Assembly (NCBI GenBank): GCA_043228905.1
Contig: JBHGNT010001456.1
Location: forward strand, 1-8,233
Length of the DNA stretch: 8,233 bases
Direction of reading: 5' to 3'
DNA from: Azolla caroliniana
Taxonomy: Eukaryota; Plantae; Polypodiophyta
The translations under genes and the position numbers were made by a program. Of this stretch, positions 1-8,233 are shown piece by piece; within the stretch, counting starts at the first letter, position 1, and every line of letters begins with the position of its first letter. The notes below the pieces were generated by a model. The model was not told where the DNA came from. It worked only from the letters and a program-made list of their open reading frames with translations, and searched no databases.

Positions 1-327
1 AAGCTTCTTCTTCTTGATAATAATTTGACAAAAATGGAACAAAAACTCCATCAAAGTCCTCCGATCATGGATTAAAAATTTGCATTAACTTAGGTACGAA
101 ATAGAAATCAAGGTGCATATGGGCAAGCCTACCGACAAAAGCATTGGCCATGGACATGGCCGTAATGCGATTCGCACATGGTTCTTCCGTGCCTTCTTCT
201 CTTGATCGAAAGACTTATAAATTAAGCTTCTTCTTCGTAATAATAATTTCGACAAAAAAGGAACGAAAACTCCATCAAAGTCATTTTCAATCATGGATCG
301 AATTTTTGGATTAAGATTAACTTGGGT
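1..327. repeat. Diverged direct repeat with about 223 bp spacing (1-~95 vs 224-~327); may continue left of the window
   Basis: aagcttcttcttc..ataataattt(c)gacaaaaa(t/a)ggaac(a/g)aaaactccatcaaagtc..atcatggat..attaactt(a/g)ggt occurs starting at both 1 and 224. Confidence 0.85.
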
Positions 328-413
328 TTTCTTGGATTAAGATTACTTTGGGTCTTTTCTTGGATTAAGATTAACTTGGGTCTTCTTGGATTTAGATTTA
401 ACTTTGGGTCTTC
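306..413. repeat. Minisatellite, 4 copies of a 26-28 bp unit (ttggattaagattaacttgggt(c)ttc)
   Basis: Units at 306-331, 332-359, 360-385 and 386-413, differing by small indels and substitutions. Confidence 0.9.
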
Positions 414-688
414 TTCTTGATCAATTGGAAAAGAAGGACGTGATTTTCAATGCTCATCATTATCTGTGATTAGTGTCTCTCGCGCGCAGGATTAGCAGAA
501 GACTATGATTTATGCTGATAATCAACATTCTCAGGTATTTTGTGATTTGAGATGGACACAAATCTGCAAAGGATGTGAATGTCGTGTTTGTCGAATGTGA
601 ATAAAACTGAAGTGTTGATCCTGGTCTGATCAAAGGTCATGGAGGACAACCATTACAGATAACGTTTGTGATGGCTGTCTGCAATGTC

Positions 689-715
689 AAGAAGAAGCAG
701 AAGAAGAAGAAGAAG
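689..715 (+). repeat. Short imperfect (AAG)n microsatellite in a purine-rich, low-complexity tract
   Basis: aagaagaagcagaagaagaagaagaag; further GAA/GGA-rich runs near 780-800 and 870-930. Confidence 0.75.
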
Positions 716-1049
716 TTCCCATAGCTGTAAAGCACCTTATGCAGCAAGGCATGGAGCATAACCAGCAAAGTCGAAGGCAAAGACAAAAAAGAAGAAGCTT
801 AAGAGCTTGTCATGTTTTGACGATGATTTAGACCATTAAATCTCTTGAATATATCACGGGTTTTCTACCAGTGAAGAAGGAAGACGATTTAGGAGGAGGA
901 AGAGAAGAAGGAATAAATGAGAAGAAAGTTCGAGAATTAGTGACTTTGTTTTTTTAATTCACTATATCTGCAGGATTGGGAAGAAAATATTGCTAACACT
1001 TCTACCCAACAACAACATAAATAATGCTAGTTGTGTCTTACTGTGGCTG

Positions 1050-1790
1050 TGGTGAATACTCTGAGCTTTGACCAAGTATATATGGTCTAGTCTGTAGCCT
1101 TAATAAAGCTCAGCTGTTCGATCTCGGATTGACATGATAACCGGGGAGAGTCCAGATCAGATGTATAGTTTGGAGAAAAGTTCAAACGATGCAAGCTTCG
1201 CGAAGCACCTCTGCTGCAATGAATCTAGCAAAACGCGGACTGAGTCGGTAAGACATTCATTTTGTTTTCCTTTCAGAAATCCTGAGTATTGTTTTCTCTT
1301 TTCCGGTAGGAAAACCCGAAATGGAGTAGATTGTCGAATTACCGGGATAATCTCTCCTCACACACTCTCACATCATGAGAAACAACTGCTAGGATGGGTG
1401 TTCAGAGTATATTACCCCTTCTAAATTTCCTAAAAAGCTTGTAATTTTACGAAGAAAATTATATCTTTGCAAGATAACTAAGACTTAGATGGTCTTCCCA
1501 GTCTTGAATAGAGCAAAGAAAAGAAAAGGGCCAATTTTAATGCAAAAACTTGTATTACCAAAAACGTTCCCAAACTAGTTTTGCTCGACCATGTGAGCCC
1601 CAGAACACCTACTTTGATATTTCAGAGAATGAGCCCCTCTTCTCTTCATATAGGAGGGGAGGGGTATGTGCTCTCATACTGGAATATGGACGTTCTCTTA
1701 AACAACAGTTATATAATGATTATACACTGCAATGGTCATAGTCGGAGCACTATTCGTCCAGAAGGCCAATGGACACCTGAGTGTGGATGG
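1050..1790 (+). mobile_element. Penelope-like retroelement remnant, copy A (frameshifted, stop-containing; N-terminal region plus possible RT motif A/B' remnants)
   Basis: Across frames: NLSSHTL (1349-1369), HEKQLL (1374-1391), YITP (1408-1419), IFAR*LRLRW (1463-1492). This follows the PLE N-terminal pattern NLS..L...E..LL..G.KF.P...F.R.LRL..FF. It is an inverted homolog of copy B (60/78 nt identical, ungapped, 1210-1287 vs 2719-2642, counted by hand). Weaker matches: PQNTYFDISENEPLFSSYRRGGVCAL (1598-1675, motif A-like) and MDVLLNNSYI..TAM (1686-1734, motif B'-like). Boundaries are approximate. Confidence 0.7.
1248..1309 (+). other. Putative 62-nt phase-2 spliceosomal intron in PLE copy A
   Basis: CG|gtaaga...cctgag...ttgttttctcttttccggtag|G. 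Splicing gives MNLAKRGLS-R-KTRNGVDCRIT in one frame. Confidence 0.55.
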
Positions 1791-3205
1791 TAGCCCTTAG
1801 GCCAGAGTATGAGGGATTCTTCCAGCAAATCATTGGTCAAGAAAAGTTACACAACTTGGAGTCTGCTAGAAGAAGTTGAGAGACTTTGGGATTCATACCT
1901 TTGAGTTTTACAGTTCTAGTATACTTGAAGTAAAAATTCTTTAAGTATAGAGGATTCCCATGTTTTGTAATACTTCTTTTACAGGATTGTTGGAGAAGAG
2001 TTGGCCTCCTGCTATACACAATTTTGGCAAAGCTGGCCTTGGAAATCTATCTGGGTAGCCTCTTTCTCGAAGATGTTGGAACAATAGAAGTCCTGTCCTT
2101 TTGAAGTCTTCAATAGTGGTTTCCCCCAAAACATATTGACTTAGGTTTTCTATGATGAATAATGCTTGCTTTCGGTGTTGAGGGTAACTAGACCCAAATG
2201 TTTGTCCGCAGGCATCATGAGAATGTTTTGGGTCTTCCTAAAATTGTTGGGGGCTCTTCATTGATGAAGAGGGAACCTGTTCTGTTGGATGTTAATGCAG
2301 TTTGGATTCCTGCACGATGGAGTCTCCTAAGCTTATGATTCTTTTTGAGGGTGGGTAGAATTTTTATACTTCCAATTTGGATTTGGTTCTTTAGTGGGTT
2401 CTTAAAGAGAGGGATACGCCACTCATCTCTTGACAATATCATCTAAGTGTTATTTGTCTTGCGAAGATGTTTTAGTCTTGACAGGTTTCAGGGTACTTAA
2501 AAAGGGGGTAATATACTTGTGTCCCATTCTAGGAGTCTTTTCTCATGGTGGAAGACTATTTATGATGAGTAATTACGGATGGCCACATTGGTAATCCTAC
2601 GATCTACTTCATTTGGAGTCTTCCTACTAAAAGAAAAAACAACTCAGGATTCGTGAGAGGAAGCCAAAATGAATGTCTGACAGGTTTGCTTGGCCTTTTG
2701 CGAGGTTCATTGGAGCAGAATTCCTTTTTGGAACCAGACATTGGGACGTTCTGGATGTCCTTTGAAAGGGTCAGTGGTGCATTGGAGTCAATGAGTCTCT
2801 CTGCTTCCAAACGGGATGTGCAAGAGTTGCCTCTTTTTCATGTTGTCACTCTGATGCCATTGCCTTTTTCTGGTTCTGGTTGGGGATTTTGGTGGCATTT
2901 TTCCTGGAAATTTTTATGATCTACCTTAGGAAGATCGTGGACTTTTCCTGCTTTGAGTTTACACTGTTGTGTTCCTCTTTAGGACTAGTGCTTGATGTTG
3001 TTGCCCCCCCTTCATTAGGATATTGGCCTTCTTTGATTTTATCTGCTCTACATGCACTTAACCTCAGCATGTGTGAAAGGTTATATAGCTCTTGTTTGGA
3101 GAAGTTTATATAACTACATGATGAAATAAGATAGTCCAGAGTCAAGTTAGTGTGATGCATCATGAATCTTGTTGAGCTCCCCTGCACTTTTATGCTTATG
3201 CTCAC
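1790..3205 (-). mobile_element. Penelope-like retroelement remnant, copy B, internally deleted (N-terminal region and PADK motif joined to thumb/C-terminal region)
   Basis: In order on the minus strand: IRNYSS*IVFHHEKRLL (2580-2530), MGHKYITP (from 2527), IFARQITLR* (2468-2439), EPNPNW (from 2389), LHQ*RAPNNFRKTQNILMMPADKHLGLV (2269-2186). Then YPQHRKQALFIIENLSQYVLGETTIEDFKRTGLLLFQHLRERGYPDRF (2186-2043), a frameshift to FAKIVYSRRPTLL, and PMICWKNP (1836-~1813). These match the PLE motifs I.I.PADK..G.V, HP...K..FI..EL.RY...F...L..RGYP and P.IA(Y/W)K. Support is strong for 1810-2720; the extension to about 3205 is tentative. Confidence 0.8.
2624..2681 (-). other. Putative 58-nt phase-2 spliceosomal intron in PLE copy B (tandem TAGTAG acceptor)
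   Basis: CT|gtcaga...cctgag..ttgttttttcttttagtag|G. Splicing gives MNLAKGQAN-L-KTPNEVDRRITNVAIRNYSS, in frame with the PLE N-terminal motif. Same aligned position and phase as in copy A. Confidence 0.55.
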
Positions 3206-3874
3206 TTTAACCTAAGTTACTTATAGAGAACCCTTTTTGTAGTAATGTCGCTACGTGCTTGTTAGAATACATGGGGTTATATTCTCCATGGTTTGAAAGG
3301 ACAGAAAGAAGATGAGTGCAAGGAAAATACAAGTACATCCAAATGACATTATGTTGTGATGATAACACCATGCACTTACCGAACAAAAATAGTTGGGCTG
3401 GTTATAATAACATGTTACATGATAGATCATGAAGCCTTTACCCTTATATTTCAAAGGTTACTAGATTAATATTATTCTTTTGCCAAACATCACTCATAAT
3501 TCCTCATTTAATTGTAAAACTGGGCATTCAAAAGAACTTGGTTGTATGTATAGTGCAAGTGTCTCCAAAGTCCTTGAAATTTAGCCACTTTGTGATAAAT
3601 ATAGCCTTTTTTTTCTTGCAAACAATATAACGTGCTGTATGAGTCCATTTTATATGTAGTGGAAAAAAGGCTGTTTCAAGAACGAAATGGTGTTGTAGTT
3701 TAGAATATTTCACCTTGTTAGAGGCACTTGCTCTCTTTCCCTTCCCCCATGCCCAAAACTCCTTCCCTCTCAAAGTGTTTCTGTTGCTTTCCAGGTTCAT
3801 GAGCATTACAATAAAGTAAGGAAATGATTGTGATAAGCACTTAACTGCGATGGGAAAACCTAGATTCATTTTAC

Positions 3875-4362
<488 letters not shown>

Positions 4363-4747
4363 TTAAATCTGAATATTGAATGTCATAGATCTTCAAAAAA
4401 AGGCCCTTTGTAGTAGTGGTTAGTTGTTTTGTTCTACTGTTCGGTGTCTCTTTTCATGACTCCATATGGGATGGGCATAATTCACTGTTGAATAGTGATG
4501 ACTTGTGCTTTAAGAAATCATTATTCTGTTTGAGTTTGCAATTTTACACATCATGCTAGTTGGTAGTCCAGGGAAGTGTTTTATCAAAACCAAACTACTT
4601 GGAAGATCTTTGGTTGTTCGTGGTTGAAGCCATTAACATAAGGGTGAACACATTTGTGAGGTTCAAACTGTTGTCAAATGGGTGGACGATCTTGGATCAA
4701 GAGAACATTGCAGATTGGTCGGTCTACAGGAGGGCATAGCCATGACG

Positions 4748-5056
4748 TATAATTTGTTCATGCAATTTGATATAAACTGTAAGGGGGGCACATTATAGAT
4801 ATATCATTGTTGTATAAATCTCTGATTTGGGTTATTTTTCTTCCATTGCATATAATTTGTTCATGCAATTTGATATAAACTGTAGGGGGGGCACATTATA
4901 GATATATCATTGTTGTATAAATCTCTGATTTGGGTTATTTTTCTTCCATTGCATATAATTTGTTCATGCAATTTGATATAAACTGTAGGGGGGACACATT
5001 ATAGATATATCATTGTTGTATAAATCTCTGATTTGGGTTATTTTTCTTCCATTGCA
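4748..5056. repeat. Tandem array, 3 x 103 bp, near-identical
   Basis: Units start at 4748, 4851 and 4954 (tataatttgttcatgcaatttg...ttcttccattgca). The only differences I saw are at the G tract: AAGGGGGGC / AGGGGGGGC / AGGGGGGAC. Confidence 0.97.
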
Positions 5057-5684
5057 TGTTGTGCTTCTCTTGGTCTCTTGCTATTATATCCTCCCCTTCT
5101 AAGATAATATTTGTACCACATATATAATTTGTTGGTTTGTCTTTTCCTTGAAGAGTAATGTGTATGATCTTGTTTAAAGAATTAATGAGCCTAGTGAAAC
5201 ATAAAAAATATGCATTAATAGACTTTCTTTCATGGAGATGTATAACCATCTATTGAAATCTATCATCGGTGTACGATGCAATTTTACCAACATCACATGA
5301 TTTTTAAGATCATGAAAGAAATCACAGGGCTTGTGGCCATAGTGATAAATCTCAGCTTTATTAAGTTTATTCCAAACTGTAGGTCTTCTTTTGAGTATTG
5401 AAAATTTTGCCTTTCAACATCAACATCATGCACATAGTTTTGAGACATTTATCCACAAATAGTAGATCTTGACAATCAATCATGGAATAGTAATTTGGGT
5501 TAAATTTGAATAGAAGAACTAGTTATAGGTATCAGCTTGTTTCAGTTCGGTTTCCTTGGCCTTAAAACCAAACTGAACAATTTATATATACCAAAAACCA
5601 AACAGTTGTCGTGTTGCCAATGGCATGTTTCGAACTCAACACCCTTCCTTGAAAGAATATAATTATCACTTAGAAAACTATTTA

Positions 5685-6850
5685 ATATTTCTTTTATTTT
5701 CCAAGAAAGATACTACATTAGTATTAAAAAAACGCCCTAAGGCTATACATGAAATATGTACATTAGGTAATGACCGTTGTGCTAAGTTCTAATTGTTGGC
5801 TCAAATAATTACTTCAATATAAGGTAGATCTACTCCACCTTATCAAAAATCCGCCTATAAAATATTCATTTGTTTCATATGGCATGAAACTCCAATCGTT
5901 GTAACTTTGTTGGTTACTTATTACTTTTTATATTATCCAAAGAACCTCTGAGGTTATGCACAATCCCTGTCAAATCCCAGAAATGATATGGGCAAGTCTT
6001 TTGGTTACATTTTGGAATATCTTCAAACATCTTGCCTTCCAAATATACCAAATTGTGATGCTACTTACCAATTGCCATATTTCAAGTTTATCAATCTCTA
6101 TTTGTGGATTTAGAGGTATAATTGTTATTCGCATCAAACCATGTCTCATGGCCAGAGCATTTGCAACATCCCCTTGTACATATACCATTGGTTTATCTTA
6201 TACCACCACCCATAATATTGCCCCCATATATATACCACTCAAAGATAGATTGGTATAAACAATATTACAGTTATATTCCATATTTCCATTGCAAAGTCAC
6301 AATTCCACAGACAAAGCTTAGTAGTCACCACTAGATTCATACAAAAAAGGCACATATTGTCTACATTCATCCCTTTTCCCCAACCATTAACTGGTATAGC
6401 TCTATGAACCAACAATCACCGAAAACAAACACTTTTCCTACTCCTTTTATGCCCCACAACCATTTCTTAAATTGCTTGGATGTTGTGGAGAAAGCCGAGA
6501 AAACATGAGTAACCAATTCCTTCCATGATCTACCACCTAAAATTTTCCTATTAATCTTCACAGAATACAAGAAAAAAGCAAATGTTTTTATCAGAGCTTG
6601 AAGATCCCAAGTTAATGAAGATATTGAACTGACACTTTCCTATACAATTCTCCAAGATCCCAAGTTAATGAAGATATTGAACTGACACTTTCCTATACAA
6701 TTCTCCAAGATCCCAAGTTAATGAAGATATTGAACTGACACTTTCCTATACAATTCTCCAAGATCCCAAGTTAATGACGATATTGAACTCCTTTCCATAA
6801 TCCAAAACCTCCAAAAGAGATTCACCTTTTGTGGATCTAGATCTAAGGCC
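5685..6850 (-). mobile_element. Degenerate, 5'-truncated L1-type LINE: ORF2 C-terminal region with zf-RVT domain and an A-rich 3' end
   Basis: Minus strand: KQFKKWLWGIKGVGKV, a frameshift, then CFR*LLVHRAIPVNGWGKGMNVDNMCLFCMNLVVTTKLCLWNCDFAMEIW. This is the zf-RVT CxxC-x-H-x3-C pattern at 6352-6299, with Leu (CTT) at the His position. It is followed by IWQLVSSITIWYIWKARCLKIFQN (about 6080-6010), typical of plant L1 ORF2. An aaaataaaagaaat tract lies near 5700-5687. Ends are approximate. Confidence 0.88.
6601..6789. repeat. Tandem array, about 3.6 x 53 bp, within or at the 5' part of the LINE remnant
   Basis: aagatcccaagttaatgaagatattgaactgacactttcctatacaattctcc at 6601, 6654 and 6707, plus a 30-bp partial copy at 6760-6789 with one substitution (gacgat). 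Confidence 0.97.
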
Positions 6851-6909
6851 TAATTTGATCTATCATTTGCGACCACCCTCACTTCATTATGCAAACAAAA
6901 ACGAAACAA

Positions 6910-7700
6910 ATTAGGGGCCGGTTTAGGTTTGAGATTCCATTATTGGTTTGAGCCCAGTTTAGTTCGGCTTGGGCCATGCCAAACCGGTTAAGGCTTAATC
7001 GGTTTGGCCAAATCAATTAAGCCATAATTGGTTTAAGGATTGGTTCAACTCAAGTTTTAAAATTTCCAAATTGGTTACTGGTTATGGCATAACCGTTTTG
7101 GCTTGGAGAAGGACAAACCAGTTAAGTCGAAACCGAACCATTGCTGATTCCCACAAGTAAGGAAATGTAAAACCAAACCCTATTAAATCGAATAAGGAAA
7201 AGTTAAAACAAAACAAACCATTAAGGAAAGGTGAAACCAAACTATTTAAACTAAATTGTGTGAGGAAACGTTGAAACAAAACAGAATCATTTAATCACAA
7301 ATCTAAACCAAACCATTTATTAGTTAAACAAAAAAGACATAAAAAACTTTTAAGTTAAATTAGTATTAAAACATAAAAATCATTAAATTAATTAAGAATT
7401 AAGTAAAACCAATAAACCATTAAATCAAACCACTTAAATTGATAAGCTATAATAAACCTTCATTTGAGAATCAAACCTAAATAAAACCAAATTGTTTCTT
7501 CATAATTGAAACCAAGTCAAATTGTTTTATTATTTTGAACCTATAAATTGTTAAACCATGGCTTAACGATTCAGTTTCATTTGAGATGAATGAAGGCTCA
7601 TAGCTAAGTAGTTGAACCATTCATAAACCTAATCAAAATAAGGTAATGGACTAAAACTAAAGTTATGTGGTTAAGTAGTGAACCTATTGGTTTATCCTCA
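6910..7700. mobile_element. AT-rich block with dispersed AAACC(A/G)/(T/C)GGTTT motifs and short palindromes; probable decayed non-autonomous DNA transposon
   Basis: Many aaacca/aaaccg/ttggttt motifs, no credible ORF, and palindromes at 6978-7008, 7080-7094 and 7551-7566. I could not define termini or a target-site duplication. Confidence 0.5.
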
Positions 7701-8233
7701 CAAACAATTTAGTTTGCCTACAAGCCAAGAAAAGATAATGTGAAGATTTACTTTAACTGGTACCTTTATCCACCTAGTTGTAGAGACATTGGCATCTCAA
7801 ATGCCAAAGCACATTCAATCCAATAATTAAAATTGTTAATATTCACATTTGCTGAGATATTTCAAATTGTTTATATGGATTTCATGACACGCTTAGGTCT
7901 TTCCAGTTAATAAAATTGATGTTAAAGCTTAATGACTTGAAAGGGCATCGAGTGACCATTAGTGCAACAAAATATCAACTAGGGGAGAGGGACAATTCAA
8001 AACACAATTTAGAGTAGGAGAAAGTTGTTTGTATTAACAATTCATTTGTTGGAGCCAACACATGAAAAGAACATATGAATATTCTTACTTTTACTTTTCA
8101 TAAAGAAAAATCGCCTAACAGTGATTTCCTTTGGATGGGTTGGGCCTTTAAAACATGGACAAAAATAGCCCTCCCTTGAATGCAAAGGATTTCTTTGCTA
8201 CATGCATATTGATTGACACTTCCTTGTCTCTTT

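What the first reader, a model, noticed from the sequence alone, without database searches (positions are those of the whole stretch)
1050..3205. Tail-to-tail pair of diverged Penelope-like retroelements in apparent plant DNA
Seen: ORF-track entries 1134-1424(+) and 2604-2810(-) are homologous (VRHSFCFPFRNPEYCFLFSGR vs VRHSFWLPLTNPELFFLLVGR; 60/78 nt identity over 1210-1287 vs 2719-2642). Homology continues through HEKQLL/HEKRLL, YITP/YITP and IFAR*LRLRW/IFARQITLR*. The two copies converge near 1790. Established: these motifs, plus PADK and LRxRGYP, characterise PLE reverse transcriptases, which are relatives of telomerase RT, patchily distributed in plants, and known to form partial-tandem and inverted structures. 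Inference: the copies are too diverged to be a fresh self-inversion, so this is either an old inverted structure or one subfamily inserted against another. It may be an unannotated PLE family.
Basis: partly seen in the sequence, partly recalled or inferred. Interest (0 to 1): 0.8.

Follow-up and report, generated by a model that had tools for sequence, protein, structure and literature searches.

The report
Fossil tail-to-tail Penelope foldback in fern
This is a dead, broken copy of an endonuclease-lacking Penelope-type jumping gene in what is likely a fern, joined tail-to-tail to a short inverted piece of its own front end; it likely arose long ago when one copy folded back on itself, and similar foldbacks occur at other places in the genome.

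Summary
The inverted homology is real (60/78 nt; E 9e-25) and is no assembly chimera: one contig from another study spans it, and a run under another organism label holds the same junction. The junction lies at about 1500, not 1790. The minus arm (about 2800 to 1505) has lost its whole RT core but keeps the thumb, the 3' UTR and a decayed hammerhead. The plus arm (1154-1499) is only an N-terminal fragment. Intact relatives (at least 150 RT hits, mostly interstitial) have ORF1, a slippery site, an RT without GIY-YIG, CxC or IFD, and canonical hammerheads. They belong to the Selaginella-type EN-minus (Coprina-like) PLE clade. The host is likely a fern. The two arms are each other's closest relatives and show no significant codon-position bias, which favours one old self-inversion over two subfamilies. 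Tail-to-tail pairs occur at 4 of 12 old-lineage loci examined, whereas head-to-head is the published norm. Sense-strand self-priming is the likeliest cause but is not shown. This scan noted the same kind of element before on other DNA of this genome. Verdict: new member of a known kind, with an unusual recurrent geometry.

The parts
1154..1499 (+). Short arm: decayed N-terminal part of the PLE RT ORF (FWxP, GxK[FY] region, LRLRW); 3'-truncated, no PADK, no RT core, no tail
   Evidence: nhmmer E 2.6e-24; protein profile positions 16-88, iE 0.003; 212/277 identity to the long arm
1499..1505 (.). Tail-to-tail junction (approximate)
   Evidence: End of arm-arm homology at 1496-1499; 3' UTR homology on the other side; spanned by contigs of runs X2 and X12
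1505..1780 (-). 3' UTR of the long arm, ending in a T-rich tract about 100 nt short of the terminal motif seen in two relatives
   Evidence: Alignment to the C14 and C51 copies, score 128 vs shuffle max 96; 19/19 nt at 1562-1544
1571..1603 (-). Decayed type I hammerhead ribozyme; core nucleotides changed, predicted inactive
   Evidence: Aligns with the hammerhead of the C14/C51 copies; missed by Rfam and by the core pattern that found intact motifs in relatives; fold z -0.23
1810..2198 (-). Long arm, RT thumb and C-terminal region (HPxHxK, ELxxY, RGYP, PMICW); frameshifted
   Evidence: Profile positions 460-587 of 603, iE 1.6e-10 and 5.4e-11; tblastx E 2e-25 to the C14 copy
2171..2198 (-). Internal deletion junction: about 306 codons (RT motifs 1-7, including the catalytic YxDD) are missing
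   Evidence: Profile jumps from position 153 to 460; the same jump against intact ORFs
2201..2795 (-). Long arm, N-terminal region of the RT ORF (FWLPL 2669, HEKxLL 2547, PADK 2212-2201); stops and frameshifts
   Evidence: nhmmer E 3.6e-45; tblastn E 2e-14 to 4e-14 to P0014 and P0016
2796..3044 (-). Probable ORF1 remnant with a decayed slippery site at 2873-2862 (weak)
   Evidence: Low-score pairwise alignments to the C1 and C14 arms; position by eye against relatives

Best explanation
The locus is a dead endonuclease-lacking Penelope-like element of the Selaginella type, with its RT core deleted, fused tail-to-tail to an inverted 0.35-kb piece of its own 5' part, likely made in one old fold-back event. 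Shown: clade, domain losses, junction, sister relation of the arms, presence in other samples. From the literature: such elements use an RT without its own nuclease and prime at existing DNA ends; a hammerhead lies near the 3' end. Inferred: the 3' end of a sense-strand template folded back onto an internal site just after LRLRW and primed a copy running back towards the 5' end; the hairpin was copied and inserted at a break, giving one long arm with the tail and one short arm without it; both arms then decayed neutrally. The time of the RT-core deletion is unknown. Odds: EN-minus PLE fossil about 0.95; one origin for both arms about 0.8; self-priming rather than later DNA rearrangement about 0.5 given one origin.
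For: Arms are sisters: 76.5% to each other vs 63-72% to other old copies in alignments over 100 nt; 39 vs 5 vs 3 quartet sites; bootstrap 99. Differences between arms by codon position 22/15/26 (p=0.11) and private changes 14/9/14, whereas all six comparisons of a window arm with another locus show third-position excess (p 0.002-0.03). No continuation of the short arm within 40 kb of C2. The same long-plus-short tail-to-tail form occurs at C1:2.418 Mb (arms 94%/87%, same outer start) and C14:263 kb (arms 90%, short arm ending at the same LRW site as here), and a tail-to-tail pair at C6:5.447 Mb. Contigs of runs X14 and X3 hold what is probably one more such pair. PMC3846280 (Discussion) states that self-priming on a sense template would give tail-to-tail repeats, against the usual head-to-head.
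Against: No fold-back microhomology can be seen at the window junction (best 5 nt) or at C14 (4 nt); only C1 has 7 nt. The long arm may reach about 250 nt further 5' than the short arm, so matching outer ends are not shown here. The codon test has low power: 63 differences, and the control of C14 arms vs the C1 copy was also not significant (p 0.09, 0.25). The C6 arms are not resolved as sisters. Gene conversion between inverted arms could mimic sisterhood. The old lineage also has head-to-head pairs (C13, C11). Loci were picked from search hits, many with short flanks.
Confidence: 0.55

Rival explanations
1. One insertion was later duplicated in inverted form by DNA repair or replication (fold-back at a break, or a full palindrome trimmed by an asymmetric central deletion). 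The PLE's own RT played no part in the inversion.
For: It equally explains sister arms and neutral divergence. Internal deletions are common in this lineage (window; C11 copy). A large inverted repeat of other sequence lies at C12:17.80 Mb.
Against: At C1 the inverted part stops within the element and the flanks are not inverted. Window flanks are not inverted either. Repair would not be expected to favour PLE sequence at four loci.
Confidence: 0.25
2. Two independent copies of one subfamily inserted next to or into each other in opposite orientation; the plus copy then lost most of its length.
For: Young families do cluster and join in opposite orientation, e.g. two different families head-to-head at C3:1.69 Mb. 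A slight third-position excess between the arms remains (26 of 63).
Against: No remainder of the plus copy in 40 kb. No other close copy found by DNA search (4 matches, all this locus or its duplicate). PLE copies are normally 5'-truncated, and the short arm lacks the 3' end. Two fresh insertions would join by their 5' ends, i.e. head-to-head.
Confidence: 0.17
3. The element is an endonuclease-bearing PLE (Naiad/Chlamys, PLE-X, or Dryad/Poseidon) whose inverted structure came from nuclease-led integration.
For: Genome-wide interstitial spread (82 of 87 hits more than 100 kb from contig ends) is typical of EN+ PLEs. Four of the 120 listed homologues carry PF01541.
Against: No GIY-YIG in six tested ORFs of intact units. 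Only 1 PF01541 match in the genome (C8:2.59 Mb), not beside any listed RT hit. No CxC before DK and an RT3-RT4 spacing of 59-64 aa, so no IFD. The GIY-YIG homologues fall outside the vascular-plant clade.
Confidence: 0.02
4. The junction is an assembly chimera.
For: The window is a whole 8.2-kb unplaced contig that duplicates part of C2.
Against: The same arrangement is on C2 at 98.8%. One contig of run X2 (another study) spans 800-3500 with 8 differences. One contig of run X12 (another organism label) spans 1088-2326 with 67 substitutions.
Confidence: 0.01

Closest known systems
EN-minus PLEs of Selaginella moellendorffii and conifers (Coprina-like group; row 'Selagine1' in Fig. S1 of PMC8557442; listed as EN(-)PLE in Table 1 of PMC9033089)
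   Same: RT3 and RT4 motifs of the relatives match the Selagine1 row nearly letter for letter. One clade with Selaginella, Ginkgo and Cryptomeria proteins, support 0.997. No nuclease, no IFD, canonical type I hammerhead, telomere-like repeats after the hammerhead in two families, 5' ends capped by telomeric repeats at C3.
   Different: Host is likely a fern, which these papers do not list in the passages read. Copies are mostly interstitial and numerous, whereas EN-minus PLEs are described as generally restricted to chromosome ends. The window copy is a core-deleted fossil in tail-to-tail form.
Inverted PLE insertions of Penelope and Naiad type (PMC3846280; Fig. 2 legend of PMC8557442)
   Same: Inverted partial copy directly beside a longer copy; internal deletions; heavy decay.
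   Different: The published form has a 5'-truncated inverted copy at the 5' end (head-to-head). Here the inverted piece is 3'-truncated and sits at the 3' end (tail-to-tail), and the element has no endonuclease.
PLE-X / Chlamys of Selaginella and Chara (PMC8557442)
   Same: Plant PLEs; PLE-X lacks GIY-YIG, has a hammerhead and spreads genome-wide in Chara.
   Different: PLE-X has the CxC motif, a long N-terminal extension and, in Selaginella, 28S rDNA targeting. The relatives here have no CxC and no IFD.
Mu killer-type inverted duplications of a transposon's 5' part (recalled, no call)
   Same: An inverted duplication of 5' transposon sequence could have made hairpin RNA.
   Different: Different class of element; no expression or small-RNA evidence here; the arms are now only 76% alike.

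Membership tests
Penelope-like elements (PLE) | N-terminal GxKF/Y and DK motifs before the RT | tested here: met
   Decayed GxK region in both arms and PADK in the long arm align to a clade profile
Penelope-like elements (PLE) | RT core motifs 1-7 | tested here: not met
   Absent from the window (profile 154-459 missing). Present in intact relatives (RVT_1 E 1e-6, just under the Pfam cut-off), so the window is a deletion derivative
Penelope-like elements (PLE) | RT thumb region | tested here: met
   Profile 460-587, iE 1e-10 to 5e-11
Penelope-like elements (PLE) | Partial tandem or inverted structures | tested here: met
   Window pair; tandem arrays of about 5.6 kb and inverted pairs elsewhere
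EN-minus PLE, Selaginella/Coprina type | No GIY-YIG endonuclease | tested here: met
   None in tested ORF1 and RT ORFs; positive control P0052 scored; 1 PF01541 match in the genome, away from listed RT hits
EN-minus PLE, Selaginella/Coprina type | RT groups with the Selaginella EN-minus element | tested here: met
   Relatives form a clade with the Selaginella protein P0027 (0.997, FastTree) and match the Selagine1 motifs. The window itself is placed through N- and C-terminal similarity only. No curated fungal Coprina sequence was in the tree
EN-minus PLE, Selaginella/Coprina type | Upstream ORF1 joined by a frameshift | tested here: met
   ORF1 overlaps the RT ORF, with an A-AAA-AAC heptamer at the overlap in 4 of 4 young copies printed. 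Only a weak remnant in the window. Frameshifting itself is inferred
EN-minus PLE, Selaginella/Coprina type | Hammerhead ribozyme near the 3' end | tested here: met
   Canonical core in relatives; decayed in the window
EN-minus PLE, Selaginella/Coprina type | Reverse-complement telomeric repeats after the hammerhead | tested here: inconclusive
   Present in two young families, not evident in two others; none in the window
EN-minus PLE, Selaginella/Coprina type | Location mainly at chromosome ends | tested here: not met
   5 of 87 hits within 100 kb of contig ends (0.8 expected), 82 interstitial; the window's C2 copy is 4.6 Mb from the end
Naiad/Chlamys (including PLE-X) | CxC motif upstream of GxKF/Y | tested here: not met
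   No CxC before DK in 9 of 9 proteins scanned
Naiad/Chlamys (including PLE-X) | Insertion-in-fingers domain | tested here: not met
   RT3-RT4 spacing 59-64 aa in 8 of 9 proteins (one not measurable), like canonical PLEs
Penelope/Poseidon (Dryad), Neptune, Nematis | C-terminal GIY-YIG endonuclease | tested here: not met
   RT ORFs end shortly after the PxICW motif, followed by UTR and hammerhead
Any active element | Transcription or mobility | not testable with these tools
   No run on record as RNA holds the stretch; stops, frameshifts and the core deletion make the window copy non-autonomous

The most novel reading that the evidence does not exclude
An old fern lineage of endonuclease-lacking PLEs regularly made tail-to-tail foldback insertions by self-priming on the sense strand. 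This is the geometry that Arkhipova et al. 2013 predicted for a sense template but rarely saw. With hundreds of interstitial, partly intact EN-minus copies, this fern would be a natural system for working out how nuclease-free PLEs prime and integrate away from telomeres. The foldbacks may also have acted as hairpin silencers of their own lineage.
Probability: 0.35. Interest if true: 0.65.

Novelty: new member of a known kind. Interest (0 to 1): 0.42.

Why it matters
The locus itself is dead DNA. Its value is as a witness. First, it extends the Selaginella/conifer EN-minus PLE group to a likely fern, and the RT tree (lycophyte, gymnosperms, this genome; Closterium outside) fits long vertical descent in vascular plants. 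Second, these nuclease-free elements are abundant and mostly interstitial here, against the rule that they stay at chromosome ends. Third, recurrent tail-to-tail pairs bear on the open question of which strand templates PLE copying, and younger examples (arms 87-94% alike) make that testable by sequence alone.

Tried and rejected
Pfam on 14 window ORFs gave nothing of use; the fragments are too short and decayed. Rfam found no hammerhead in the window, and only a sub-threshold HH9 hit beside one relative. PDB sequence search with an intact relative found no match at E<=1, so the telomerase relation rests on the literature. A possible continuation of the plus arm at 3978-4064 scored -6.7 bits and was rejected. 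Exaptation: the element part of the X12 contig differs by 5.4% and the flank by 9.0%, p=0.057, so no claim. Expression: no RNA holder listed; one guessed-RNA run has a single 300-nt contig at depth 2.1, not used. A C12 'palindrome' proved to be a single ORF1 fragment inside another inverted repeat. The automated survey (52 single, 5 tandem, 4 head-to-head, 3 tail-to-tail of 64 clusters) missed the short arms of the window and C1, so I counted old-lineage loci by hand. PMC1890498 and PMC4860704 are not held; what I say of them comes from citing papers or is recalled.

Full report
Observation. The window is the whole contig G000:C1456, in a 523-Mb assembly, and is repeated at 98.8% on C2. A contig of run X2 from another study spans 800-3500 in one piece with 8 differences. 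A contig of run X12, under another organism label, spans 1088-2326 with 67 substitutions. The structure is therefore real and older than the split between those two samples.

Host. A gene about 16 kb beyond the window's copy on C2 has its best named homologues in Adiantum and Ceratopteris (up to 64-65% identity, ahead of mosses and lycophytes), and chromosome-scale contigs begin with plant-type telomeric repeats. The host is likely a fern.

Anatomy. A profile built from 34 plant-clade proteins maps the minus arm to positions 3-153 and then 460-587 of 603. About 306 codons, all of RT motifs 1-7, are missing at 2198-2171; intact ORFs from the same genome show the same jump. After the end of the ORF (about 1790) the minus arm goes on as 3' UTR. 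It aligns to the UTR of copies on C14 and C51 (score 128, shuffle maximum 96), includes a decayed hammerhead at 1603-1571 and an exact 19-nt match at 1562-1544, and ends near 1505. The plus arm covers only 1154-1499 and stops just after LRLRW. No continuation exists in 40 kb of C2. The junction is thus near 1500, not 1790.

Family. A search with a relative's C-terminal ORF returned 150 matches of 150 candidates scored, out of 405, so 150 is a lower bound; many have open frames of 660-970 aa and some form 5.6-kb tandem arrays. Full units have an ORF1 that overlaps the RT ORF at an A-AAA-AAC heptamer (4 of 4 young copies printed), an RT ORF without GIY-YIG, no CxC and no insertion in fingers, and a canonical type I hammerhead. 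Two families carry telomere-like repeats after the hammerhead. The genome has one PF01541 match, not beside any listed RT hit. Homologues: 861 at E<=1e-20, the best named ones from Cryptomeria, Selaginella, Ginkgo and Closterium. In a FastTree tree of 121 RT cores, this genome's families group with gymnosperm and Selaginella proteins at 0.997, with Closterium outside and the GIY-YIG-bearing proteins further out (rooted on a sea-urchin protein, no curated Coprina included). The RT3 and RT4 motifs match the 'Selagine1' row of the reference alignment in PMC8557442. Of 110 hits on C1-C22, 87 lie on the 16 contigs whose length I knew: 5 within 100 kb of an end (0.8 expected) and 82 interstitial.

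One origin or two. The arms are 76.5% alike outside gaps, and 63-72% to other old copies. Quartet sites favour their sisterhood 39:5:3, and a tree of 11 arms gives 99%. Differences between arms fall 22/15/26 on codon positions (p=0.11 for third-position excess); all six comparisons of a window arm with another locus are significant (p 0.002-0.03), and changes shared by both arms fall 9/4/14. This suggests a coding lineage up to the common ancestor and mostly neutral decay after it. Power is low, and the C14-vs-C1 control was not significant. Corrected distance between arms is 0.28-0.39, against 0.056 between the window and the X12 contig, so the structure is some 5-7 times older than that split if the arms share one origin.

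Recurrence. I examined 12 old-lineage loci by hand, all picked from search hits. Four are tail-to-tail: the window, C1:2.418 Mb (arms 94% and 87%, same outer start), C14:263 kb (90%, short arm ending at the same LRW site as here) and C6:5.447 Mb (68-73%, sisterhood unresolved). Two are head-to-head: C13:17.62 Mb (palindrome, 84-88%) and C11:3.29 Mb. Six are single or in a mixed array. Contigs of runs X14 and X3 show what is probably one more tail-to-tail pair. Among young families the inverted pairs seen were head-to-head (C3, C17), apart from one mixed array on C51.

Mechanism. PMC3846280 (Discussion read in full) says self-priming on a sense template would give tail-to-tail repeats, while head-to-head is most often seen. 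That model predicts one long arm with the template's 3' end, one short arm starting at an internal site, and matching outer ends. C1 fits all three and has a 7-nt fold-back microhomology. The window fits the first two; its outer ends match only roughly (profile starts 413 and 443, with a weak further extension of the long arm), and no microhomology survives. Later inverted duplication by DNA repair remains a strong rival, and two separate insertions a weaker one.

What is in print. Read: PMC8557442 (parts 1-4 of 10, section 12, passages, supplement parts 1 and 54 and a supplement search), PMC3846280 (passages and Discussion), PMC4209133, PMC6431247 and PMC9033089 (passages). PMC9033089 lists EN-minus PLEs in Selaginella, Pinus and Picea and has no occurrence of 'fern'. 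Searches listed no paper describing fern PLEs or tail-to-tail EN-minus PLEs. The library lacks most subscription papers, two key papers were not held, and repeat tables in fern genome supplements, Repbase and Dfam were not seen; any of these may already list the family. Two earlier notes of this scan report EN-minus PLEs on other DNA of this genome.

Verdict. Real, old and dead: a new member of a known kind. The recurrent tail-to-tail form and the interstitial abundance of a nuclease-free PLE are the parts a specialist would want. Interest 0.42.

Noticed in passing
G000:C3:1.695 Mb (L066:5150-5520): Two different young PLE families lie head-to-head, each 5' end capped by plant telomeric repeats, with about 230 nt of other DNA between: looks like two telomerase-capped ends joined inside a chromosome.
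   Followed up: partly
G000:C7:1-7900 (L082): The telomeric array directly caps a family-B copy broken inside ORF1, with the copy's sense strand running towards the telomere.
   Followed up: partly
L059:2309-4858: ORF1 of family B holds a long Pro-Asn repeat encoded by hexameric telomere-like repeats.
   Followed up: no
L056:2263-6349 (C17): A young family-A copy carries a 438-nt inverted piece of its own RT core at its 5' junction (99% alike).
   Followed up: partly
L053-L071, family A 3' ends: Nine of ten dispersed copies end at the same short A run, with unrelated flanks such as copia and LINE sequence and no telomeric repeat at the joint; target choice unexplained.
   Followed up: partly
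L016, L059, L062, L066, 3' ends: A short motif followed by a possible stem-loop is shared near the 3' ends of several young families, downstream of the hammerhead.
   Followed up: no
L152:3759-6813 (C13:17.62 Mb): A 3-kb head-to-head palindrome of an old copy, 28-nt spacer, both arms cut at the same point in RT motif 5.
   Followed up: partly
L155:4295-4957 (C11:3.29 Mb): A second old copy that also lacks most of the RT core.
   Followed up: no
window 4748-5057 and 6601-6789: Tandem repeats of 103 nt (3 copies) and 53 nt (3.6 copies); the C2 duplicate appears to have one 53-nt unit fewer.
   Followed up: no
window 5686-6494: An 800-nt stretch has a 77% direct copy on C2, about 0.6-1.4 kb beyond the window's left end; probably another decayed repeat.
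   Followed up: no
window 1-8233: The whole contig is a 98.8% duplicate of C2:23,776,129-23,784,315, probably an unplaced second haplotype.
   Followed up: yes
window 6900-7700: AT-rich region with many short AAACC/GGTTT motifs and a 27-nt palindrome at 6981-7034; possibly a DNA transposon end.
   Followed up: no
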